From positions 1,869 through 65,868 of the forward strand of contig JBBQAL010000002.1 of NCBI GenBank assembly GCA_038316135.1: 64,000 nucleotides of DNA, in the 5' to 3' direction. Below, piece after piece: positions 232 through 22,358 of the stretch. This DNA comes from Candidatus Nanopelagicales bacterium (lineage in GTDB: Bacteria > Actinomycetota > Actinomycetes > JAHEKZ01). A program made the position numbers and the translations under genes. The notes under the pieces are model-generated. The model made no database searches, was not told the origin of the DNA, and was given only the letters and a program-made list of their open reading frames with translations. Every line of letters starts with the position of its first letter. Position 1 is the stretch's first letter.

Positions 232-1194
232 TCATTCACTGCGTTGCTGACAGGTTGCGGTCTCCCCAACAATCCAAGTGTCATCGCTTCCCTGGGTGAT
301 GCGGATCAGGGCGGTCCAGCCCCCGGGGTTTTCTTTGATGCCCGTGGTGATCTCGGACGTGGAGTAGGTGAGGGTCTGGAAGTCCTCGTTGGTCCATCCT
401 TCCTTTCGGAAGTCAATCCGCAGAATCTCAGTGAGGGCTTCCTCTGGCGTTGCGGCACCACCGGTTCCTGATCCGTCATAGATGGCGGCGCCAGTCAGGA
501 AATGGGGTGGGCACTCCAGCGTGTCGACGAGACTCTTCGTAGCGGTCTTGGGAGCGACGACAGGGGGTCTGATTCCGTTGAGCCAGTCAACAAAGCCGGA
601 GGTCCAGTAGGGCTCACCGTTCAACGTGAAACCGCCGCACTCGGCGGTGTCGGGAACGGTGACTTGCCAGGTCCGACCGGCAGTGTCTTGCAGCATGACG
701 AAGTAACCTGCATCACGCGGATCGTGAGAAAGGGGGCAATCTGGCGTCCCGTGTTCTGCATTGCGTAGGAACCACATAAGTTCATTAGTCTGTTGGACGC
801 CCAGCCCCTGGGTCGCGATAATCGTCACAGTGGGATCGAGCAGAGCGGGATTCCGCCATTGACAGATACCTGCGCCAACGACATCCATGTCGAGCACTGC
901 TTGGTTGCTGGGTGAGGCCTCGGATGGTCGTGTGGCACAGATTTCGTCAATCCAGGTCCCAGCCTGTGCGGCGGTCATTGGATCAGTCGTGCTACCTGTA
1001 TCGACCAGCGCCAGCGGAATCACAACCACTGCGGTCACGGTGACGGCAGCCGCAACCAGGACCCACTGGGGTCGTCGCCTCCACCAGGGCAGGGCCGAGA
1101 CCTCCTGCAGGTCGGGAGGCAGCGGTGGGTGCGGACCCGCCTGGGCGGCCCTGTCGTTCAAAAGGTCACGCAGCCGCTGGTCCAAGTCGCTCAT
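232..1194 (-). CDS. Putative membrane-anchored anti-sigma factor. Single TM segment around residues 45-65 with a large extracytoplasmic domain.
   Basis: 320-aa ORF whose ATG overlaps the stop of the upstream ECF sigma gene by 4 bp (ATGA). One hydrophobic segment (VLVAAAVTVTAVVVIPLALV) follows a short cytoplasmic N-terminus. No recognisable catalytic motif. Confidence 0.5.
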   Translation of the reverse strand: MSDLDQRLRDLLNDRAAQAGPHPPLPPDLQEVSALPWWRRRPQWVLVAAAVTVTAVVVIPLALVDTGSTTDPMTAAQAGTWIDEICATRPSEASPSNQAVLDMDVVGAGICQWRNPALLDPTVTIIATQGLGVQQTNELMWFLRNAEHGTPDCPLSHDPRDAGYFVMLQDTAGRTWQVTVPDTAECGGFTLNGEPYWTSGFVDWLNGIRPPVVAPKTATKSLVDTLECPPHFLTGAAIYDGSGTGGAATPEEALTEILRIDFRKEGWTNEDFQTLTYSTSEITTGIKENPGGWTALIRITQGSDDTWIVGETATCQQRSE

Positions 1195-3126: not shown

Positions 3127-3650
3127 GAACCATTGGTGGCTGGAGGAGTTCGGGGACCCCTGCCGGTCGTGCGGTTATGCCTGGCAACCACCAGTCGAAT
3201 CCGCCATACAGATCGTTGCAAACTCGCCCGAGCAGTGCGCCGGCCTTCTGACGGATCAGACGGGTCACAACGACACCCGGATCTGGAATGGTCGGCGAAA
3301 GGGTACGTCTTTCACGTCGCAGATAATCTCCGCATCTGGGCAGAACGAGTAGCAGCGTCCATGGCCGGCGCTCACCAGCCAATCGCCCCCTACGACGACA
3401 ACTTGCTCGCGACCGCACGCGCCTACGAGCAGATGCCACTGGAAGCGGCGATGTGGGCCCTGACTACCAGCGTGGACCGCTGGATGAGCATCGTGCGCCC
3501 GGCCCTGATTCGGGATCTGACCCTCGATCACCCAGAGAGGGGGCCGTTGCGAATCAGCGATGTGGTGAGCAGCAACTGCCACGACGTGGTCCACCACCAG
3601 TGGGACATTCACCGCTCCACCTCGGCGCCGATCTCTTTGCGCCCAGCCCG
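3107..3650 (+). pseudogene. DinB/mycothiol-dependent maleylpyruvate-isomerase-N-terminal-like family gene, apparently frameshifted
   Basis: Frame-2 ORF 3107..3352 (MNHWWLEEFGDPCRSCGYAW...) continues in frame 1 after about nt 3270-3290 as WSAKGYVFHVADNLRIWAERV...DVVHHQWDIHRS, which are DinB_2-like motifs. Neither frame alone gives a complete protein. The downstream frame-1 tail is Arg-rich, which suggests a wrong frame. Confidence 0.3.
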
Positions 3651-11731: not shown

Positions 11732-12604
11732 TCAGCCCTCGGGGCTCGCCTTTGGCGCCTTCGTTGGCTTGGTGGACGGTGGACCCTTGGGCTGGTTTGT
11801 CCCCGACTTGCCGGAGTGGTCCGACGTGCCGCCCTTGCGCGGCTTGCTCGACCCACCCTTCGACGTCCCCGTCGACGGCTTGGCGGACGGCTTGTCACCT
11901 GGACCCTTGCCGTTCGGGTCGTTCGAACCCTTCGGACCCTGGTTCGGCTTGTCACCTGGACCCTTGCCGTTCGAACCCTTCGGACCCTTCGGACCCTGGT
12001 TGGCGTCCTGGTGCGGACCCGACTGGCCAGGAAGGTCGCCGGTCAGTTTGTCGATTCGGTTCTGCTGGCCCGGGTTGACATCGCCGCCCAGCACCGCCGT
12101 CGCCTCGGTCAGCAGCTTCTGAGCCTGCGCAGGATCACCATTGGCCATGGCTCGCTGGGCGTCGGCCAACAACTTGTTGGCCTTGGCCCGGTCGGGGGTC
12201 TGCTCTGGCAGCTGCTCGCGAGTGTTTGAATCATCTCCTGCGAACGGGTTGACTTTCGCCATCGCGTGGAGCGGCGCTCGCACCAGGGCGAGAGGGTCGC
12301 CAGTCACAGCCGCCGCAGCCCCGCCAGAAACAGCCAGCGCGAGGACGGTCGATCCGGCGATCAGAGCAGTGCGCCTGCCCCGAGCGGTGGATGTGGCATG
12401 GGTGGTCGACCCACGCGACGAGACGTGCGGCATCACGAACCGAGTGGTTTCATCGACGCCGTCATCAATCTCGGCAACCCACGCCGCTAGCAGCGCTACC
12501 GCAGGGTCGTGCAGGTCTACCTCGTCGAGGGCGCGAGTGGCCAGAGCGTGAATGGACGCAGCATCCTGCTGAACCGCCACGACATCAAGTTCCTGGGCGC
12601 CCAT
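11732..12604 (-). CDS. rsdA: Anti-sigma factor (RsdA-like anti-SigD), single-pass membrane protein with a Gly/Pro/Lys-rich repetitive C-terminus
   Basis: 290 aa. The ATG overlaps the sigD stop (ATGA). TM segment ALIAGSTVLALAVSGGAAAAV. The C-terminus is a low-complexity repeat (GPKGSNGKGPGDKPNQGPKGSNDPNGKGPGDKPS). Synteny sigD-rsdA-guaB as in Mycobacterium. Confidence 0.6.
   Translation of the reverse strand: MGAQELDVVAVQQDAASIHALATRALDEVDLHDPAVALLAAWVAEIDDGVDETTRFVMPHVSSRGSTTHATSTARGRRTALIAGSTVLALAVSGGAAAAVTGDPLALVRAPLHAMAKVNPFAGDDSNTREQLPEQTPDRAKANKLLADAQRAMANGDPAQAQKLLTEATAVLGGDVNPGQQNRIDKLTGDLPGQSGPHQDANQGPKGPKGSNGKGPGDKPNQGPKGSNDPNGKGPGDKPSAKPSTGTSKGGSSKPRKGGTSDHSGKSGTNQPKGPPSTKPTKAPKASPEG
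11888..12002. repeat. Imperfect tandem repeat, about 58 bp x 2, inside the rsdA-like coding region
   Basis: cggcttgtcacctggacccttgccgttcg...aacccttcggaccctggtt occurs twice in tandem. The second copy differs by small indels. It encodes the KGPGDKPNQGPKGSN peptide repeats. Confidence 0.7.
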
Positions 12605-13215
12605 CAGACTGACACCTCGTCAGTGGCGTAGGTACGCAAGCGGGCCAAGGCGCGGTGCTGGGCCACCCGAACCGCACCGGGAGTCATTCCCAATGCGCGA
12701 CCGGTCTCCTCAGCTGACAAACCGACCGCTACCCGAAGGAGGAGGAGCTCGCGGAGGTTGCTGGGCAACCGATCCAACAGGGCGTTGGCCAACTGCGTGT
12801 CCCCTGCCTGGATGACCCGTTCTTCAGGCGTCATGGCTAGGTCCCTGCCGTCAGGGATCACCTCAGTCGGAATGGCGGTCCGAAAGGCGGCACGCTGCAG
12901 GTCAGCCACCTTGTGCGCGGCGATACCGAAGACGAACGCCTCGAAAGGGCGTCCCTCATCGCGGTATCGGGGAAGCGCATTCAGCACGGCGAGCAAGACC
13001 TCCTGCGCCGCATCATCTGCGGCAAAATCGGCTGCCGGAACACGTCCTAAGCGTCCCCGGCAGTAGCGAACTACCAGCGGACGAAGGTGGGTGAGCAGCG
13101 CCTCGGCAGCAGCGTCGTCGCCTTCGGCGGCACGCCCAACGAGGGTGCGCAGATCACCATCCTCCGTTCGATGAAGGATCGCTCCGCCGGGTCCGTTCGT
13201 TACATCGCTGCCCAT
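12604..13215 (-). CDS. sigD: ECF sigma factor, SigD-like
   Basis: 203 aa with region 2 ([37 protein letters not shown]) and a region-4 HTH ([35 protein letters not shown]). Position upstream of the anti-sigma gene and guaB matches the mycobacterial sigD locus. Confidence 0.8.
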
Positions 13216-13263: not shown

Positions 13264-13875
13264 TTAGCGCACCAAGCCCCAGCGGAAGCCCATTGCGACG
13301 GCTTGCGCTCGGTCGGCAGCTCCCACTTTTCGGAAGAGCCGGCGGGCATGGGTCTTGACGGTGTCCTCCGACAGGTACAGCTCGCGTCCGATCTCGGCGT
13401 TACTGCGGCCTCGGGACATACCACCAAGTACTTGGAGCTCACGCTCAGTCAGGGTAGGGGGTGCCCCCATCTCGACCGGCTGCGTGCGCCGGGGCACCCG
13501 CCGCCATGTTGCCTCGGCCAGTGCGTAGGAAACCGTCGCTGTCAGCTCTTCGCGGGTAGCGTCCTTGACCAGATAGCCACGTGAGCCACCGGCCACCGCG
13601 CGCGCCACGCCATCTTGGTCCTCAGCCATCGTGAGCATCACGACGGCGGCATCGGGATAGGTTGCGACGAGTCGACGTGCTGACTCAACCCCACCTAACC
13701 CAGGCATTCGGACGTCCATCAGCACCAGTTCGGGGCGTTCCCCCGCCCACCTGCTGAGCACCTCTTCGCCACTCCCCGCCACCGTTACCCGATCTACACC
13801 GGGAACAGCAGCGACGGCGCGACGCAGTGTCTCGCGTGCGAGCGGTGAATCGTCGCACACCAGAACCGTGGTCAC
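13264..13875 (-). CDS. Two-component response regulator, NarL/LuxR family (orphan)
   Basis: Receiver domain (VLVCDDSPL...LVLMDVRMPGLGG...GYLVKDA) plus a C-terminal LuxR HTH (LTERELQVLGGMSRGRSNAEIGRELYLSEDTVKTHARRLFRKVG). Start assigned to the GTG at 13875, preceded by a GGAGG SD. The longer track ORF has an implausible N-extension. Confidence 0.85.
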   Translation of the reverse strand: MTTVLVCDDSPLARETLRRAVAAVPGVDRVTVAGSGEEVLSRWAGERPELVLMDVRMPGLGGVESARRLVATYPDAAVVMLTMAEDQDGVARAVAGGSRGYLVKDATREELTATVSYALAEATWRRVPRRTQPVEMGAPPTLTERELQVLGGMSRGRSNAEIGRELYLSEDTVKTHARRLFRKVGAADRAQAVAMGFRWGLVR

Positions 13876-14023
13876 GGCGCCTCCTTGCAGCGCTCGTCGA
13901 TCGAGCGCGTCGCGGTTCTCGGGTGAGGGGGGCCCGACTGTCTGTAGGTACTCTTCGGCACGTTTGCTACGGAGCGTGAGGGGTGACTTCTTCGAACTTC
14001 CCGAGCCGTGACCAGCACCGGAG

Positions 14024-14950
14024 TCACCCGCCCAGCAAGGCGGCGACATCGGGCCGGTCAAGCCACACGTCCCGCAGGTCGTCGGGAAGATCGTCAGCAA
14101 TGGCGATCACTCCGCTGCGGGCCGCTGCCAGCGACTTCGCCGATTCAGCCGGTGAGCTCTCCTCGAGCAGGGCACCCAGCAGCGCTCGGGACGGCCACAG
14201 CGTGGGAAGGGCACCCAGGCTCTCAGCAAGGGTCGCTGACCGACGAAGGGTGTTCTCAGCCTCGGCGAACTTGCCACCTTGAACCTGGGCCACCGCGAGC
14301 AAGAGCAGAGTCTTGGCCACGTGTCGCGGGGCGCCGGAGACCTCGGCAACCTGAACAGCCCGCAGCAAGATTTCGGCGGCACGCCCTGGATCGCCGATGA
14401 GCATGGCCACTTCCGCCTCCACCCAGGCCAGCCTGACCCGTTGCCGCCACCAGTCGTGGTGGCCGTCGGTCAGCTGGCGGGCTTGTTCAAGCAGATGCTG
14501 GGCCGTTACGGAGTCCTCGTTGACGACGGCATCGGCGGCGAGCCCGATGGTCGCGTCAAAGGTGGCTTCTGGTGCGCCCTCGCTGTAGGCGAAAGCTGCG
14601 TCGTCGAGCAGCTTGGCCTCAGCGAGCTGGCCCAGTTGGCGCCTGACCGCTGCCGACGTTGACGCTGCGAGAGCGGCGAATAGACGCCGTTCGGGCACAT
14701 CGGAGGTACCCGCGGCCACGAGCGGCTCGAGCACCGCCAGGGAACCACCGAACTTTCCTGCTGCTGCCAGACAGACACCGAGCAGCCAGGCTGCGGCCGT
14801 GGCCTCGGCTCCCTTGCCATCGGTCCTCGCCAGCTCGAAGGCCGACTCCAACACGACAACACCACTCGCCGGGCGACCATGAAACGCAGCGCGCTCACCG
14901 GTAGCGAGCAGCTCGGCAAGGTCGTCGGACACAGGTACACCCCAAGACAT
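14024..14950 (-). CDS. Hypothetical Ala/Leu-rich helical-repeat protein
   Basis: Start taken at the internal Met (MSWGVPVSDDLAELL...); the longer ORF N-terminus is Arg/Cys-rich junk. No kinase or other catalytic motifs. Helical, TPR-like composition. Confidence 0.45.
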   Translation of the reverse strand: MSWGVPVSDDLAELLATGERAAFHGRPASGVVVLESAFELARTDGKGAEATAAAWLLGVCLAAAGKFGGSLAVLEPLVAAGTSDVPERRLFAALAASTSAAVRRQLGQLAEAKLLDDAAFAYSEGAPEATFDATIGLAADAVVNEDSVTAQHLLEQARQLTDGHHDWWRQRVRLAWVEAEVAMLIGDPGRAAEILLRAVQVAEVSGAPRHVAKTLLLLAVAQVQGGKFAEAENTLRRSATLAESLGALPTLWPSRALLGALLEESSPAESAKSLAAARSGVIAIADDLPDDLRDVWLDRPDVAALLGG

Positions 14951-15066: not shown

Positions 15067-15993
15067 TCAGCCCCCGGCAGCGCGCTGCAGCACGGTGACG
15101 GCTTCGCTCAGCGTGCTCACATGTTCGGCACCCGGCGGCACTTGGTCCAGCCAACCTGGGCCACCCACTACGACACATACCGGCGGACGCATGGCCGGAA
15201 CTGCCTCGACTTGATGAGCATCGGCCATCTCGGGCCGATGTGCCCAGAGGAAGACCCCGCTCGCACCACCCCGACGGACGGCAGCTTCGATCGCTTGCCC
15301 CGGAACCCGGGCGCCCAAGACCCGCGAATCGATTCCGCGTTCGGCCAAGGCTGCGGCCAGCGCATGAAGAGGCAGGGTGTGCAGCTCTTCGGGCGCCGAG
15401 GCAAGCATGACTGGGCGAGCGTTGCGTGGCTCCGGCGCAGAAAGCATGACCGAGCGAAGTGACCCCATCACGGTCTCAGCCATCAGATGCTCGACGTCGA
15501 TACCGTTCCCAGTGTCCTGCCACCGCTCGCCGATGGCCGAGAGAACCGGAAGCAGAAGTGCATCCCACGTCCAGAGCACGCCGTACTTTCCGAATGCTTC
15601 GACCAACATCTTGTCGATGGAGCGGGCGTCCAGAGCCAGCGCTGCCCTAGTCAGACCACGGACGGCGGCATCGGTGCTGCGCAGCGGGACAACGGACAGC
15701 GGAGGGCTTTCCGGCTCAGGCGCCAGCCCGAGATCGGCCGGCCCGGCCAGCGCGACGCGGGCTGCCTCGGCCGGGGCCACTCCCTCCAGGGTCAGTCGAC
15801 GCATCTGCTCCAGGCGCTGTACGTCAGTGGGCGTGTAACGGCGGTGGGCGCCAGCTGAGTGGCCGCTCGGACCCACGCCATAGCGCCGGTCCCAGGTGCG
15901 CAGGGTTGCCGGGGCAACCCCCAACCGCCGAGCAAGTGCAGCCACAGTGAGCGACGGCTGCCGGGCATGCGCGTCATTCACCGGTTGTTCCAT
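15067..15993 (-). CDS. MerR-family transcriptional regulator with a C-terminal cobalamin-binding (CarH/LitR-like) domain
   Basis: N-terminal MerR HTH (LTVAALARRLGVAPATLRTWDRRYGV). A W-x9-EH motif (WQDTGNGIDVEH) is characteristic of the B12-binding four-helix bundle of CarH/LitR, and a downstream E-L-H-T-L segment resembles the DxHxxG His-ligand motif. Start taken at MEQPVND. Confidence 0.65.
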   Translation of the reverse strand: MEQPVNDAHARQPSLTVAALARRLGVAPATLRTWDRRYGVGPSGHSAGAHRRYTPTDVQRLEQMRRLTLEGVAPAEAARVALAGPADLGLAPEPESPPLSVVPLRSTDAAVRGLTRAALALDARSIDKMLVEAFGKYGVLWTWDALLLPVLSAIGERWQDTGNGIDVEHLMAETVMGSLRSVMLSAPEPRNARPVMLASAPEELHTLPLHALAAALAERGIDSRVLGARVPGQAIEAAVRRGGASGVFLWAHRPEMADAHQVEAVPAMRPPVCVVVGGPGWLDQVPPGAEHVSTLSEAVTVLQRAAGG

Positions 15994-16143
15994 AAGGGCG
16001 ATTGTGGGCCGACCTGGCCGGCCGCGCACCTCGACACCCCTCAGCAGCAAACGATCCGAATATTGGCCGGTGTTCAGACTTGACCAACCTATGAAGCGGT
16101 TGTAGCGTACGTATCACGCACCACATAGGAACCGCCCACAAAC

Positions 16144-16449
16144 TTGGAGGACCCCATGGCCGACATCTCCCGACTCCCCGGGCCGGTCGCCGATGTATGG
16201 GAATGGCAGTTTGACGGCGCCTGCCGAAGCACTGACCCTGCGACCTTCTTCCACCCAGAGGGCGAACGTGGCCCATCACGTGAAGCCCGCGACCGAGCCG
16301 CACAGGCGATATGCGCCAGTTGCCCGGTAATAGCCCAATGTGCGGCCCACGCGCTCGCCGTCCGTGAGCCCTACGGCGTCTGGGGTGGCATGACCGAGGA
16401 AGAGCGCGACGCGATCTATCGCCGCAAGACGCTCAAGCTCGTCGGCTGA
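16144..16449 (+). CDS. whiB3: WhiB-family [4Fe-4S] transcriptional regulator (WhiB3/WhiD-like)
   Basis: Four conserved Cys (C...C-ASC-PVIAQC), the GVWGG turn and a basic C-terminus. Divergent from the groEL1 locus, as for whiB3 in mycobacteria. Confidence 0.85.
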   Translation: MEDPMADISRLPGPVADVWEWQFDGACRSTDPATFFHPEGERGPSREARDRAAQAICASCPVIAQCAAHALAVREPYGVWGGMTEEERDAIYRRKTLKLVG

Positions 16450-16500
16450 TTTCCGACAAACGCTGAGGACGTCAGCTGGCCCGCTCGGGTGCCGACAACC

Positions 16501-18165
<1,665 letters not shown>

Positions 18166-18261: not shown

Positions 18262-18561
18262 TCACTTCTCCACGATCGCGAGCACGTCGCGTGCAGAGAG
18301 GATGAGGTACTCCTGTCCGTCGTACTTGACCTCGGTGCCGCCGTACTTGCTGTAGACGACAACATCACCAACGCTGATGTCGAGGGGAATGCGCTTCTCG
18401 CCGTCATCGTCGAAACGACCCGGACCAACGGCAAGGACCTTGCCCTCTTGGGGCTTCTCCTTGGCGGTGTCGGGAATGACGAGACCTGATGCCGTGGTCT
18501 GCTCGGCATCGAGGGCCTGGACGAGAATGCGGTCCTCGAGCGGCTTGATGGAAACCGACAC
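18262..18561 (-). CDS. groES: Co-chaperonin GroES (10 kDa)
   Basis: [15 protein letters not shown]...[10 protein letters not shown]...[18 protein letters not shown] start at 18561 preceded by a GGAGG SD; the track ORF is 5'-extended. Located upstream of groEL1. Confidence 0.95.
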
Positions 18562-18666
18562 TGAGATGACCTCCGCCTTGCGGCTAAACGAAACAAATGG
18601 GACTGCGCCGACCTTCCGCCGTCGCGGGGTCGGACGGGCGGCGCGTGCTCGTCCACAAGGGACGGG

Positions 18667-20380: not shown

Positions 20381-22240
20381 TCAGGCCGGAGGTGGAGGTA
20401 GCGCCTTTCGAACCTCAGGAACGGTCGCGGTCGGGGGCGAGCGCAACAACCAGACCGGGTTCGAGTAGGCCCGGACGGTGGCGGTCTCGTCGCGAAGAAC
20501 GACGCGGTGAAATCGCGAGACGACCGAACTCACCTTGACCGAAAGGACCCCGTCGACGAGTTCAGCTCCGGTGAAGGTTCGACTTGTCACTTCGGGGTTG
20601 AGTACCGCGCTCCCCACCTCGTCAGCCACTCCGCTGATGATGCCGATCCGCCACTGGGCCGGGAGGCCGGAGACGAAGATGTCGAGAGTGGACCGGTCGG
20701 CATCGACCCGCCCGACCGAACCCATGGGAACGAAGCCTGCCCCGATGACATCGATCGTTCCGTTGAATGCGGCAAGGTCAGAGAACCAGGCGCGTCCTGC
20801 TCGCAGGGCGGCCTGCAACGCTGCAAGCCCAGCGTCCTGGGCCCAGACGCCGGTCACGTGCCGCCACCTCTGATTCGTCCAGTCGCGCCCTTCGTGATCA
20901 TCGGTCACACCAACCCCGGTGGCAAGGACCAGGTTGCGAGAAAGCACATCCCACACAGCGATGTAGTCGGACTGGGTCATCCCGGCACGCCCACCGGTGT
21001 ACCCGACCTCGAGGACGTCGGCTCCGAACACCCGCTCGTCGACGAAGGTAGCGGTGAGCGCTCGACGCTTCTTCGCCCTCTGATCTGCGGAGATGGCGGA
21101 CCCCGACGTTCCAAAGGGATGGTTGTACGACGCAACCCCGCCCGACGCCTGGATGGTGGAGATCGCCAGCCCGATGTCGGCGTTGGCCGGATCCGATGCC
21201 GGCCAGATCTCGGGGTTACCGAACCAGTTCAGGTGTGGCGTGTTCTCTGAGACCTCCAGCCCTTGGTGTTGCACCACCGTCGGGTAGAGCGGCGCATAGT
21301 GCGCCATCAGATCGCGTTGCACCTCAAGCACCGCCGTCGAGCCTTTGCGGAGTCGGTCGAACCGCAAGGCATCAACGACGACAGTCGACGGCGCCAGGTC
21401 GCGTGACGTGACTGCGAAGGCAAATGACGTGAGAGCTGCATCACGAAAGTCGATATCTGGCCAGATCACTGTCATGTCTGCGACCGGGTCTAGCACGAGC
21501 GTGGTCCACACGTCTGTTTCCGCATCCACCACGACCAGACCGTCCAGCGGGTCGACCTCGACGACTGTGCCGGGCTGACGGCTGCCACCAACGCGATAGC
21601 GAAGCCGGTACACGCCGGCGGGGCGGTCCTGCAGAGCAGGTCGGTAGGACGTCTCGATCACGATTTCAAACCAGGCATCCGCACTGGTCTCAATCGGCCA
21701 GACATCGACGCTGATGGTAGTGCCGTCGATGGATGTGTTGAGCCCGTAGTCCTTGACATGCGCTGTCACGGTGCGGGTACCACTGGCAGATCCACGACTG
21801 ACCGCCGACATGCGTAAAGCTCTGCCACCAACGTCGCTCGGTGACATCGGCTGGCTCACGATCGATCCAGACGAGGTGTCGAGGTCGCCAACCACGGTCG
21901 ACCGCCAGGTGACGCTCGTCGCCCCCGACCATTCGGTCAGGCCGTCGAAGTGCACATCAGTCAGGTACCGGCGCGCCACCATGCGGTGGTCATGCTCGGT
22001 CCACCAGATGACGTCGACTCCGGTGCGCTCAGCCTCGGCAAGGTGCGCCTGCATCGAGGCGCCGCCCTCACTGAATGACGCGTGCACATGCATCGCCATC
22101 CGGGTGGGAACCAGGCCGTCCGCTGGGCGAGCGGCAACGGCGGGCACTCGTTCCAGCGCAACTCCCGCGCCGGCAAGCACAGCCGTCGTCGCGGCGCCCC
22201 GAAGCACCGTACGCCGTCCTACCAGCCGTTCCCCTGTCAT
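20381..22240 (-). CDS. TAT-secreted PHP-domain (polymerase/histidinol-phosphatase-like) metal-dependent phosphoesterase-like protein with a large C-terminal beta-rich domain
   Basis: Twin-arginine signal (RRTVLRGAATTAVLAGAGVA) at the chosen start MTGERLVGRRT. PHP-like metal-binding motif MAMHVHASFSEGG...DVIWWTEHDH. Confidence 0.6.
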   Translation of the reverse strand: MTGERLVGRRTVLRGAATTAVLAGAGVALERVPAVAARPADGLVPTRMAMHVHASFSEGGASMQAHLAEAERTGVDVIWWTEHDHRMVARRYLTDVHFDGLTEWSGATSVTWRSTVVGDLDTSSGSIVSQPMSPSDVGGRALRMSAVSRGSASGTRTVTAHVKDYGLNTSIDGTTISVDVWPIETSADAWFEIVIETSYRPALQDRPAGVYRLRYRVGGSRQPGTVVEVDPLDGLVVVDAETDVWTTLVLDPVADMTVIWPDIDFRDAALTSFAFAVTSRDLAPSTVVVDALRFDRLRKGSTAVLEVQRDLMAHYAPLYPTVVQHQGLEVSENTPHLNWFGNPEIWPASDPANADIGLAISTIQASGGVASYNHPFGTSGSAISADQRAKKRRALTATFVDERVFGADVLEVGYTGGRAGMTQSDYIAVWDVLSRNLVLATGVGVTDDHEGRDWTNQRWRHVTGVWAQDAGLAALQAALRAGRAWFSDLAAFNGTIDVIGAGFVPMGSVGRVDADRSTLDIFVSGLPAQWRIGIISGVADEVGSAVLNPEVTSRTFTGAELVDGVLSVKVSSVVSRFHRVVLRDETATVRAYSNPVWLLRSPPTATVPEVRKALPPPPA

Positions 22241-22358
22241 GTTCCCCCTCGCAGCAGCCGGCCGCCGGGCCAAGCCTCGGCTCATCCTGGCCCAACCCCG
22301 TCCTCGGCGAAGGAGAACGGCCACTATTCACCCGACCGGTGGAGGCTGGCTCATAGGC

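What the first reader, a model, noticed from the sequence alone, without database searches (positions are those of the whole stretch)
15067..16449. CarH/LitR-like B12-binding MerR regulator divergent from the whiB3-like gene
The MerR protein carries W-x9-EH (WQDTGNGIDVEH) and an ELHTL segment. These match the B12-binding signature of the photoreceptor regulators CarH/LitR. It is transcribed divergently from a WhiB-family gene across a 150-bp shared promoter region. Light- or B12-dependent control of a WhiB redox regulator next to groEL1 would be unusual.
Basis: partly seen in the sequence, partly recalled or inferred. Interest (0 to 1): 0.55.

Follow-up and report, generated by a model that had tools for sequence, protein, structure and literature searches.

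The report
B12 photoreceptor-type regulator paired with whiB3
A gene for a vitamin-B12-binding, CarH-like light-sensor transcription factor sits back-to-back with the redox/developmental regulator gene whiB3, and this pairing, together with a conserved DNA site inside the whiB3 promoter, recurs across many actinobacterial lineages, suggesting an unreported light/B12 input into WhiB3.

Summary
Window 15067-15993 (-) encodes a 308-aa protein with a MerR HTH, a B12-binding_2 helical bundle and a B12-binding Rossmann domain, both B12 domains above Pfam cut-offs. It aligns to T. thermophilus CarH (30% identity), with W158-x9-E168-H169 on W131/E141/H142 and H205 on the cobalt ligand H177. An AlphaFold model finds only CarH and CtMerR structures. 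The divergent gene (16156-16449) is WhiB3-type.

New here:
- In 78 of 80 related genome loci the same regulator lies divergent from whiB3, next to groEL/groES.
- The intergenic region carries a conserved about 22-bp element (TGAMCAAsyTnTGrmgCGnTT). It fills the -35 and the 17-18-bp spacer of a near-consensus whiB3 promoter (window 16079-16111).
- In 23 loci a second, inverted copy lies exactly 33 bp away, facing the regulator gene.
- The element is absent from whiB3 promoters of Mycobacterium and Corynebacterium, which lack the regulator. It persists in Rhodococcus and Kineococcus, whose regulator kept the HTH but lost the B12 residues.

Best reading: a CarH-like AdoCbl-dependent repressor of whiB3, relieved by light. 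Ligand, light response and binding to the element are inferred, not shown. The protein is a new member of a known family with an apparently unreported target.

The parts
15067..15993 (-). Gene for a 308-aa CarH/LitR-type regulator (MerR HTH, B12-binding_2, B12-binding)
   Evidence: Pfam. phmmer to TtCarH 5c8d, E=2.4e-16. BLASTP 30% identity, 4e-22. AF2 model pLDDT 87.6, and the top 50 Foldseek hits are all CarH or CtMerR.
15754..15948 (-). MerR-type winged-helix DNA-binding domain (residues about 16-80). It is nearly invariant among orthologues (LTVAAVARRLGVAPATLRTWDRRYG.GPS.H..G.HRRY).
   Evidence: Pfam MerR_1, residues 16-80. Invariant columns in A1 and A2.
15460..15660 (-). Four-helix-bundle B12-binding_2 domain (residues 112-178). 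It contains G155-x-x-W158 and E168-H169 (W-x9-EH at 15487-15522).
   Evidence: Pfam PF02607. Alignment to TtCarH W131/E141/H142. Conservation counts. Signature definition in PMC11796333.
15154..15411 (-). Rossmann-type B12-binding domain (residues 195-280). It holds the putative lower axial ligand H205 (15379-15381), G227-x3-P231 and G277-G278, plus the family-specific P208 and W250 at canonical Gly and Ser positions.
   Evidence: Pfam PF02310. H205 aligned to H177. Conservation counts.
15994..16155 (.). Divergent intergenic region shared by the regulator gene and whiB3
16079..16111 (+). Conserved promoter/operator element CTTGACCAACCTATGAAGCGGTTGTAGCGTACG. It comprises -35 TTGACC (16080-16085), a 17-bp spacer (16086-16102) containing the partial dyad CAACC-N8-GGTTG, and -10 TAGCGT (16103-16108).
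   Evidence: PWM score 42 bits. Found in the same orientation in nearly all related loci (74 of 78 in the whiB3 orientation; 76 at >=20 bits on that strand). It is the only strong copy in the 64-kb window. Essentially confined to this intergenic region in 935 kb of related loci. Absent from whiB3 promoters that lack the regulator.
16156..16449 (+). whiB3/whiD-type Wbl gene (97 aa from ATG 16156; the mechanical TTG start is at 16144). It has four Cys and GVWGG. The RBS GGAGG is at 16146-16150.
   Evidence: Pfam Whib, 8e-26. Best PDB relative is Mtb WhiB3, 1.5e-32. Start codon conserved in orthologues.
14024..14950 (-). TPR-repeat protein gene immediately downstream of the regulator gene. It is a homologue of the mycobacterial protein encoded next to whiB3, in the position I recall as Rv3415c. 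It may or may not belong to the same unit.
   Evidence: Pfam TPR_12, 1.1e-8. Present downstream in many loci. BLASTP 4e-11 to the 263-aa protein next to M. tuberculosis-type whiB3.
16501..18129 (-). groEL, convergent with whiB3. It is a conserved neighbour, followed by groES at about 18262-18567.
   Evidence: translation. tblastn synteny.

Best explanation
The gene encodes a CarH/LitR-type transcription factor. Its C-terminal domain binds adenosylcobalamin: His205 would be the lower cobalt ligand, and W158, E168/H169 and G227-x3-P231 would cap the adenosyl group.

Proposed mechanism: in the dark, the B12-loaded oligomer sits on a conserved, asymmetric element of about 22 bp. That element occupies the -35 hexamer and the 17-bp spacer of an otherwise near-consensus whiB3 promoter (16079-16111). 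Binding there shuts whiB3 off, and in many lineages also the regulator's own divergent promoter. Green, blue or UV light cleaves the Co-C bond, the oligomer falls apart or releases DNA, and whiB3 is expressed. B12 scarcity would have the same derepressing effect.

Shown here:
- domain architecture, signature residues and fold;
- WhiB3 identity of the neighbouring gene;
- class-wide conservation of the gene pair;
- existence, position and specificity of the conserved element;
- its co-occurrence with the regulator gene.

Inferred:
- that this protein binds that element;
- that the ligand is AdoCbl;
- that light is the signal;
- that the effect is repression.
For: Architecture and residues:
- MerR_1, PF02607 and PF02310 are all above cut-off.
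- W158/E168/H169/H205 align to TtCarH W131/E141/H142/H177.
- They are kept in 183-198 of 199 orthologues.
- Of the published light-responsive cobalamin-domain signature (GxxW, EH, GxxH, GxxxP; PMC11796333), three elements are present, and the His of the fourth is present.

Fold: AF2 model pLDDT 87.6. All top 50 PDB matches are TtCarH or the C. thermophilum MerR cobalamin domain, with cobalamin-domain TM 0.80-0.84 and rmsd 2.6-2.8 A.

Linkage: 78 of 80 genome loci encoding the closest relatives have whiB3 divergent and immediately upstream. These include Nanopelagicales, Pseudonocardiaceae, Frankiales-type MAGs, Motilibacter and Acidothermaceae. Kineosporia, Aquipuribacter and Kineococcus show the same arrangement.

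Operator:
- The element is conserved in nearly all of these loci, in fixed orientation, in intergenic DNA that is otherwise unalignable.
- A second, inverted copy lies exactly 33 bp away in 23 of 79 loci, against 6 of 1580 shuffles.
- Kineosporia has extra copies of the unit: two are PWM-scored (25.0 and 20.8 bits) and a third was read by eye.
- The core PWM at 15 bits or more hits only this intergenic region in 935 kb, with one 16-bit outlier.

Co-occurrence: the element is absent (below 10 bits) upstream of whiB3 in M. tuberculosis-type, Mycolicibacterium and Corynebacterium loci, which lack the regulator. It is present (30.7 bits) in Rhodococcus opacus, which keeps a full-length regulator gene.

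Repression rather than MerR-type activation: the -35/-10 spacing is 17 bp in 58 loci and 18 bp in 16, with -35 TTGAAC or TTGACC.

Light link: the one locus without whiB3 (L039) has the same protein divergent from a DUF2867/NAD-binding gene and two genes from a DNA photolyase.
Against: - No binding, ligand or expression data exist for any member. I found none in the searchable literature.
- Two positions of the canonical base-off/His-on motif are replaced in the whole family: DxHxxG becomes E-x-H-x-L-P208, and the Ser of SxL becomes W250. The Gly of the GxxH signature is E202. The nucleotide-tail pocket may therefore differ.
- Rhodococcus and Kineococcus relatives lost W-x9-EH and the His yet keep the HTH and the element. 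DNA binding in this clade therefore does not strictly need B12.
- The window has no carotenoid or photolyase genes in the part I annotated (1-33 kb) and no second element copy.
- The element is not a clean palindrome: on average 3.6 of 6 dyad positions pair. It overlaps the -35 and the spacer, so part of its conservation is simply promoter conservation.
- The strict sigma-70 scan did not call the promoter, because TAGCGT matches TATAAT at only 3 of 6 positions.
- The co-occurrence test rests on only three regulator-less loci and one degenerate case.
Confidence: 0.55

Rival explanations
1. The protein is a B12-availability sensor rather than a photoreceptor. It binds a corrinoid and represses or activates whiB3 according to cellular cobalamin status, and light plays no physiological role.
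For: The same domain evidence applies. Any CarH-type protein needs the cofactor to bind DNA, so cofactor supply necessarily modulates it. There are no light-protection genes beside it in the window. From my own knowledge, untested here: WhiB3 in M. tuberculosis governs propionate and methyl-branched lipid metabolism, which intersects with B12-dependent methylmalonyl-CoA mutase.
Against: The residues conserved here (GxxW, EH, GxxxP) are those that distinguish light-responsive cobalamin domains from enzyme-type ones, and they contact the photolabile adenosyl group (PMC11796333). The relocated copy in L039 sits beside a photolyase. Many carriers are sunlit-water Nanopelagicales.
Confidence: 0.15
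2. The conserved element is bound by some other factor (WhiB3-sigmaA itself, the nearby LuxR-type response regulator, or the ECF sigma), or it is just a conserved promoter. Under this reading the CarH-like gene is only a syntenic neighbour with targets elsewhere.
For: The element overlaps the -35 and the spacer, so its conservation is partly promoter conservation. No binding data exist. The block guaB, ECF sigma, whiB3, groEL, groES, tsaD is conserved as a whole.
Against: - Mycobacterial and corynebacterial whiB3 loci keep the ECF sigma gene but lack both the regulator and the element. The M. tuberculosis-type promoter TTGACG-17-TAGCGT has an unrelated spacer.
- A second, inverted copy faces the regulator gene at a fixed 33-bp offset in 23 loci, as expected for autoregulation.
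- The response regulator gene is not adjacent in most loci that have the element.
- The regulator's DNA-binding domain is almost invariant across the clade, matching an almost invariant DNA element.
Confidence: 0.15
3. The cobalamin domain is a structural relic, as in B12-independent relatives. The protein regulates whiB3 constitutively or in response to another cue, without binding B12.
For: The family-wide replacements P208 (for Gly of DxHxxG) and W250 (for Ser of SxL), and E202 for the Gly of GxxH. Rhodococcus and Kineococcus relatives work from the same site without the signature. LitR classes without functional B12 domains are described in the literature (PMC9758184).
Against: H169 and H205 are kept in 198 of 199 orthologues, E168 in 192, and W or F at position 158 in 194; G227 and P231 are invariant in the 80-sequence alignment A2. 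This holds down to about 45% overall identity. Such near-invariance is hard to explain without a ligand.
Confidence: 0.1
4. The protein acts as a classical MerR-type activator. It sits between -35 and -10 and remodels the promoter when it senses its signal.
For: The conserved bases lie in the -35/-10 spacer, the classical MerR position. The HTH is MerR-type.
Against: The spacer is 17-18 bp, not the suboptimal 19-20 bp that MerR activators correct. The C-terminal part is a CarH-type cobalamin domain, not a MerR coiled-coil with effector site. In Rhodococcus the element lies over and upstream of the -35 instead of in the spacer.
Confidence: 0.05

Closest known systems
CarH / class I LitR (T. thermophilus, M. 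xanthus, B. megaterium, Streptomyces): AdoCbl-dependent photoreceptor repressors
   Same: Same three-domain architecture. Same W-x9-EH and axial His. Same predicted fold. A candidate operator overlapping the -35 region of the target promoter. Probable autoregulation in many lineages.
   Different: - Only 30% identical to TtCarH and far below the NCBIfam CarH equivalog cut-off (83.5 against 400).
- P208 and W250 at canonical Gly and Ser positions, and Q159 in place of the bis-His residue H132.
- The linked target is a transcription factor gene (whiB3), not carotenoid or photolyase genes.
CtMerR (Chloracidobacterium thermophilum MerR-family cobalamin photoreceptor, PDB 8JBS/8JBT; PMC11796333)
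   Same: MerR-type protein whose cobalamin domain carries the light-responsive signature. It lacks the H132-type second His (Arg there, Gln here). The cobalamin-domain fold matches at TM about 0.75 and rmsd 2.7-2.8 A.
   Different: 23% identity. CtMerR has the GxxH glycine, which is E202 here. Its targets are not whiB-type as far as reported.
B12-independent LitR/CarH relatives (M. xanthus CarA; class II-V LitR, PMC9758184)
   Same: The Rhodococcus opacus and Kineococcus members of this whiB3-linked clade have lost the B12 signature while keeping the HTH and the operator. This is analogous to B12-independent family members.
   Different: The window protein and 198 of 199 orthologues examined keep the signature, so the window protein is not of this type.
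Photoglobin-B12 sensor operons of Actinobacteria (PMC8717448)
   Same: This is the only paper I found that mentions WhiB-type factors as outputs in gene neighbourhoods of B12-based putative photosensors.
   Different: It concerns a different sensor family (photoglobin plus B12 domains) and not the MerR-type protein here. It describes no whiB3-specific pairing or operator.

Membership tests
CarH/LitR class I (AdoCbl photoreceptor MerR regulators) | N-terminal MerR-type winged helix-turn-helix | tested here: met
   Pfam MerR_1, 5e-15, residues 16-80. Aligns to the TtCarH DNA-binding domain.
CarH/LitR class I (AdoCbl photoreceptor MerR regulators) | Four-helix-bundle B12-binding_2 domain carrying W-x9-E-H | tested here: met
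   PF02607, 31.2 bits against cut-off 23. W158/E168/H169 align to W131/E141/H142. Conserved in 183, 192 and 198 of 199 orthologues.
CarH/LitR class I (AdoCbl photoreceptor MerR regulators) | Rossmann B12-binding domain with the lower axial His | tested here: met
   PF02310, 34.5 bits against cut-off 32.1. H205 aligns to H177. Kept in 198 of 199 orthologues.
CarH/LitR class I (AdoCbl photoreceptor MerR regulators) | Rest of the canonical base-off/His-on motif (Gly of D/ExHxxG, Ser of SxL, GG) | tested here: not met
   Gly is replaced by P208 (186 of 199) and Ser by W250 (195 of 199). GG is kept: G277 in 173 and G278 in 199 of 199.
CarH/LitR class I (AdoCbl photoreceptor MerR regulators) | Light-responsive cobalamin-domain signature GxxW, EH, GxxH, GxxxP (PMC11796333) | tested here: inconclusive
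   G155xxW158, E168H169 and G227xxxP231 are present and near-invariant. In GxxH the His is present but the Gly is E202.
CarH/LitR class I (AdoCbl photoreceptor MerR regulators) | Curated equivalog score (NCBIfam NF052513 TransRegCarH) | tested here: not met
   83.5 bits against a cut-off of 400. The protein is a distant subfamily, not a CarH equivalog.
CarH/LitR class I (AdoCbl photoreceptor MerR regulators) | CarH-like three-dimensional fold | tested here: met
   AF2 pLDDT 87.6. Foldseek top 50 are all TtCarH or CtMerR, best E=2e-16, cobalamin-domain TM 0.80-0.84.
CarH/LitR class I (AdoCbl photoreceptor MerR regulators) | AdoCbl binding, and light-induced loss of oligomer and DNA binding | not testable with these tools
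   Needs purified protein (UV-vis, SEC-MALS, EMSA in dark and light).
CarH/LitR class I (AdoCbl photoreceptor MerR regulators) | Genomic linkage to light-protection genes (carotenoid synthesis, photolyase) | tested here: not met
   None in the annotated part of the window. 78 of 80 loci are linked to whiB3 instead. Only L039 lies near a photolyase.
Classical MerR-type activators | Operator in an over-long (19-20 bp) -35/-10 spacer | tested here: not met
   Spacer is 17 bp in 58 loci and 18 bp in 16 loci.
WhiB3/WhiD subclass of Wbl proteins (the divergent gene) | Wbl domain with four Cys and GVWGG, and closest to WhiB3 among solved Wbl proteins | tested here: met
   Pfam Whib, 8e-26. Mtb WhiB3 scores 115 bits against WhiB1 58, WhiB4 49 and WhiB7 33. 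Same chromosomal slot as the whiB3 of a M. tuberculosis-type locus.

The most novel reading that the evidence does not exclude
A cobalamin-based light (and B12) input into the WhiB3/WhiD regulator is an ancestral, class-wide feature of Actinomycetes. It is wired through one conserved operator in the whiB3 promoter. It was lost together with the regulator gene in Mycobacterium and Corynebacterium (and, from memory, Streptomyces), and converted to a B12-independent form in Rhodococcus and Kineococcus.
Probability: 0.4. Interest if true: 0.75.

Novelty: new member of a known kind. Interest (0 to 1): 0.6.

Why it matters
WhiB3 (mycobacteria) and WhiD (Streptomyces) are intensively studied redox, virulence and sporulation regulators, but what controls their transcription is poorly defined. 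A photoreceptor-type regulator is conserved next to whiB3, together with a conserved site inside its promoter. This gives a concrete, testable upstream signal, light and/or cobalamin, for this regulator in many free-living actinobacteria, including the abundant freshwater Nanopelagicales. It also explains the empty slot beside whiB3 in pathogens as a loss. Finally, it offers a compact natural promoter/operator pair for green-light control in actinomycetes.

Tried and rejected
- **Strict sigma-70 and terminator scan of 15800-16500.** It found nothing. The promoter proposed here rests on the actinobacterial TANNNT -10 pattern and on cross-species conservation instead.
- **Clean MerR-type palindrome.** The repeat finder with 6-nt seeds did not report one. 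The window has only CAACC-N8-GGTTG, and across loci the dyad is partial, at 3.6 of 6 positions. An 11-bp direct-repeat reading (TGA at element positions 3 and 14) is no better supported, at 3.4 of 8. I therefore call the element asymmetric.
- **Inverted 6-mers 16088-16101 and 16124-16135.** They are not nested and not conserved in the closest relative L001. I treated them as chance.
- **ECF-sigma promoter reading of the element (GAAC...GTT).** Rejected. The spacing is about 13 nt rather than 16-18, and mycobacteria keep the sigma gene without the element.
- **Rfam scan of the whole window.** No cobalamin riboswitch or any other RNA family.
- **Literature searches for CarH/LitR together with whiB3, whiD or WhiB.** No report of this pairing. 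Sumi et al. 2018 (LitR classes) is not held.
- **Metagenome-wide scan for further operator copies.** Considered and not run. A pattern specific enough to beat chance would return almost only whiB3 promoters.
- **PWM search for other sites.** One weak 15-bit hit at window 4187 inside guaA and one 16-bit hit in L018. Both are at chance level.
Full report
**1. What is in the sequence**

The minus-strand ORF 15067..16050 most likely starts at ATG 15993 (MEQPVND..., 308 aa). Several orthologues start with the same residues.

Pfam finds three domains:
- MerR_1 (E=5e-15, residues 16-80);
- B12-binding_2 (PF02607; 31.2 bits, cut-off 23; residues 112-178);
- B12-binding (PF02310; 34.5 bits, cut-off 32.1; residues 195-280).

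The best solved relative by sequence is T. thermophilus CarH/LitR (5c8d and 3whp, E about 2.5e-16; BLASTP 30% identity, 4e-22). The His of 'ELHTL' (H205) lies on the cobalt ligand H177.

An AlphaFold2 model built from 80 orthologues is confident (mean pLDDT 87.6). Only the N-terminus and the linker 86-103 are disordered. All of its 50 best Foldseek matches in the PDB are TtCarH or the cobalamin domain of the Chloracidobacterium MerR-type photoreceptor. The cobalamin domain superposes at TM 0.80-0.84 and rmsd 2.6-2.8 A.

The divergent gene is a Wbl protein whose closest solved relative is M. tuberculosis WhiB3 (115 bits against 58 for WhiB1). Its conserved start is ATG 16156, behind GGAGG. The intergenic region is therefore 15994-16155.

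**2. Is the B12 signature real?**

I combined orthologues from the protein search with translations of 83 genome loci, 199 sequences in all. Conservation counts:

| Residue | Kept in (of 199) |
|---|---|
| H169 | 198 |
| H205 | 198 |
| E168 | 192 |
| W158 | 183 (F in 11 more) |
| G278 | 199 |

Yu et al. 2024 (PMC11796333) defined a signature that separates light-responsive cobalamin domains from enzyme-type ones: GxxW, EH, GxxH and GxxxP. The last Pro contacts the adenosyl group of the neighbouring monomer. The window protein has G155xxW158, E168H169 and G227xxxP231; in the 80-sequence alignment G155, E168, H169, G227 and P231 are invariant and W158 is nearly so. It also has the His of GxxH, but with E202 in place of the Gly.

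Against full orthodoxy:
- the Gly of the classical D/ExHxxG motif is P208 in the whole family;
- the Ser of SxL is W250 in the whole family;
- the NCBIfam CarH equivalog model scores only 83.5 bits against a cut-off of 400.

The residue that forms the bis-His light adduct in TtCarH (H132) is Q159 here. The same paper shows this position varies among proven photoreceptors (Arg, Gln, Tyr).

My reading is that this is a distinct subfamily of the CarH/LitR class with an intact adenosyl-side pocket and a possibly altered nucleotide-tail pocket.

**3. The pairing with whiB3 is deeply conserved**

A scan of one genome per species gave 546 confirmed relatives. I examined the best 80 loci by tblastn.
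- In 78 of them a whiB3-type gene lies divergent and immediately upstream of the regulator gene. groEL and groES usually lie beyond it.
- The TPR gene is often downstream of the regulator, with a ShbA/SigD-type ECF sigma gene further on.
- Carriers span Nanopelagicales, Pseudonocardiaceae (Lentzea, Saccharothrix, Kibdelosporangium, Actinosynnema, Goodfellowiella, Pseudonocardia), Motilibacter, an Acidothermaceae isolate, and Frankiales- and Mycobacteriales-labelled MAGs.
- Of the two exceptions, L075 is a 1.7-kb contig that ends before the whiB3 position, yet it still shows the promoter element.
- Starting from WhiB3 homologues instead, Kineosporia, Aquipuribacter and Kineococcus show the same arrangement.

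The window itself is the usual housekeeping block: guaA, ABC transporters, two IMPDH genes, a putative anti-sigma, an ECF sigma, a response regulator, the TPR gene, the regulator, whiB3, groEL, groES, a THUMP methyltransferase, tsaD/rimI/tsaB, glmS, glmM and rpsI.

**4. A conserved element in the whiB3 promoter**

Outside the coding ends the intergenic regions do not align, except for one block. Iterating a weight matrix over 79 regions recovers it in nearly all of them, in the whiB3 orientation in 74 of the 78 related loci plus the window (76 regions at >=20 bits on that strand).

The consensus is cTTGAMCAAsyTnTGrmgCGnTTnTAnnnT. Invariant or near-invariant positions are T2 T3 G4 A5, C7 A8 A9, T12, T14 G15, C19 G20 and T22 T23.

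In the window it is 16079-16111:
- -35 TTGACC (16080-85);
- a 17-bp spacer AACCTATGAAGCGGTTG, with the partial dyad CAACC-N8-GGTTG;
- -10 TAGCGT (16103-08).

Across loci the -35/-10 spacing is 17 bp (58 loci) or 18 bp (16 loci), and the -35 is TTGAAC or TTGACC. So this is a good housekeeping-type promoter whose spacer is conserved far beyond what RNA polymerase needs.

Specificity:
- The element is the only strong copy in the 64-kb window.
- In 935 kb of related loci the 22-bp core at 15 bits or more occurs only in this intergenic region, apart from one 16-bit hit.
- In 23 of 79 loci, mainly Nanopelagicales, a second copy in the opposite orientation lies exactly 33 bp away, facing the regulator gene. 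Only 6 of 1580 shuffled controls gave any hit. That is the pattern expected of a divergent, autoregulated pair.
- Kineosporia, whose regulator has a long linker insertion, carries extra copies of the unit: two direct and one inverted by eye, of which two reach 20 bits or more in the PWM scan.

**5. Does the element go with the regulator or with whiB3?**

I retrieved whiB3 loci from Mycobacteriales through a search seeded with the M. tuberculosis WhiB3 sequence shown.

| Locus | Regulator gene | Element |
|---|---|---|
| M. tuberculosis-type | absent | below 10 bits |
| Mycolicibacterium | absent | below 10 bits |
| Corynebacterium | absent | below 10 bits |
| Rhodococcus opacus | intact 355-aa ORF | 30.7 bits |
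| Kineococcus | present | 38.5 bits full element; 30.4 bits core |

The two mycobacterial loci still have the TPR gene next to whiB3 (BLASTP 4e-11 and 1e-12 to the window's TPR protein). Their promoter is TTGACG-17/18-TA(G/C)CGT with an unrelated spacer.

The Rhodococcus ORF has the conserved HTH, but its C-terminal domain has lost W-x9-EH and the His. The gene caller had truncated it. The Kineococcus regulator has likewise lost the B12 residues while keeping the HTH.

The element therefore tracks the regulator's DNA-binding domain, not whiB3 and not the neighbouring ECF sigma gene. This is a small sample: three absences and two degenerate cases. It is, however, the comparison that discriminates between the hypotheses.

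**6. Mechanism**

The most economical model is CarH-like. The cofactor-loaded oligomer occupies the -35 and spacer of a strong promoter in the dark and represses whiB3, and in many lineages its own gene. Photolysis of AdoCbl releases it.

The optimal 17-18-bp spacer argues against MerR-style activation by spacer distortion. The single locus where the protein is not next to whiB3 (L039) places an otherwise typical member divergent from a DUF2867/NAD-binding gene and near a DNA photolyase. That is a classical light-response neighbourhood.

Nothing here shows ligand binding, light sensitivity, DNA binding or the sign of regulation. The B12-less Rhodococcus and Kineococcus forms show that the clade can operate without the cofactor.

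**7. Comparison with what is known, and novelty**

The protein belongs to the CarH/LitR kind but is not a CarH equivalog. The LitR/CarH family has been divided into classes I-V, several of them without functional B12 domains (PMC9758184). The B12-less whiB3-linked proteins may correspond to one of those, but I could not check this because the defining paper is not held.

Seven full-text searches that combined CarH, LitR, B12, light or photoreceptor terms with WhiB terms found no report of this gene pair or operator. The Wbl family review does not mention a MerR neighbour. The nearest statement is that WhiB occurs among outputs in photoglobin-B12 sensor neighbourhoods in actinobacteria (PMC8717448).

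I therefore rate it a new member (a distinct subfamily) of a known kind with an apparently unreported, widely conserved target. The interest is moderate to high because it gives WhiB3/WhiD an explicit, testable upstream signal.

From memory, untested here: in Streptomyces coelicolor whiD (SCO4767) and bldM (SCO4768) are adjacent. That would mean Streptomyces has also lost the regulator from this slot.

Noticed in passing
window 14024-14950 (-): The TPR-repeat protein encoded just downstream of the regulator is homologous to the uncharacterised, Pfam-less protein encoded next to whiB3 in M. tuberculosis-type and Mycolicibacterium loci (BLASTP 4e-11 and 1e-12). From memory this is the Rv3415c position. 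The gene survives where the CarH-like gene was lost.
   Followed up: partly
L086 2736-3803 (-) (Rhodococcus opacus CP095403.1): The deposited gene call starts at 3407 (223 aa). The intact ORF extends to 3803 (355 aa) and includes the conserved MerR HTH. Its cobalamin-type domain has lost W-x9-EH and the axial His. The operator-like element upstream of whiB3 is retained but shifted, so that its second half supplies the -35 TTGACG.
   Followed up: partly
L039 1738-6933: This is the only examined locus where the regulator is not beside whiB3. The same protein type (same HTH and B12 signature) lies divergent from a DUF2867/NAD(P)-binding gene, with an AI-2E transporter and a DNA photolyase next to it. 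No copy of the whiB3-type element reaches 10 bits.
   Followed up: partly
L081 4640-5000 (Kineosporia babensis): The intergenic region holds extra copies of the GAACAAsnnnTGAAGCGrT unit. By eye there are two direct copies 26 bp apart and one inverted copy, the latter forming a long palindrome with the second; two of these reach 20 bits or more in the PWM scan. The regulator here is 475 aa, with an acidic, Pro-rich insertion of about 190 residues between the HTH and the cobalamin domain.
   Followed up: no
window 11732-12604 (-) and 12604-13215 (-): An ECF sigma factor above the NCBIfam ShbA subfamily cut-off (247.8 bits against 209). It is followed, with overlapping stop and start, by a Pfam-less 290-aa protein, presumably its anti-sigma. 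The C-terminus of that protein is a Gly/Pro/Lys-rich repeat (…GPKGSNGKGPGDKP… twice).
   Followed up: no
window 13264-14100 (-): A LuxR/NarL-type response regulator without an adjacent kinase. It occupies the slot that, from memory, bldM occupies next to whiD in Streptomyces. The mechanical ORF has an N-terminal extension of about 75 residues before the receiver domain, so the true start is probably further downstream.
   Followed up: no
window 16088-16101 and 16124-16135: Two 6-nt inverted matches (CCTATG/CATAGG and GCGGTT/AACCGC) link the promoter element with the whiB3 5' leader. They are not nested and not conserved in the closest relative, so they are probably chance.
   Followed up: partly
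window 1-64000: There are no Rfam matches at gathering threshold anywhere in the 64 kb: no tRNA, no riboswitch and no cobalamin riboswitch. The window is 65% G+C and comes from an uncultured actinomycete; the identical protein is known from one 66-kb contig.
   Followed up: no
window 20381-22324 (-) and 232-1194 (-): Two sizeable ORFs (647 aa and 320 aa) have coding-type codon-position G+C but no Pfam match at 1e-6. The second overlaps the start of an upstream ECF sigma gene (1191-1703), so it could be another anti-sigma factor.
   Followed up: no
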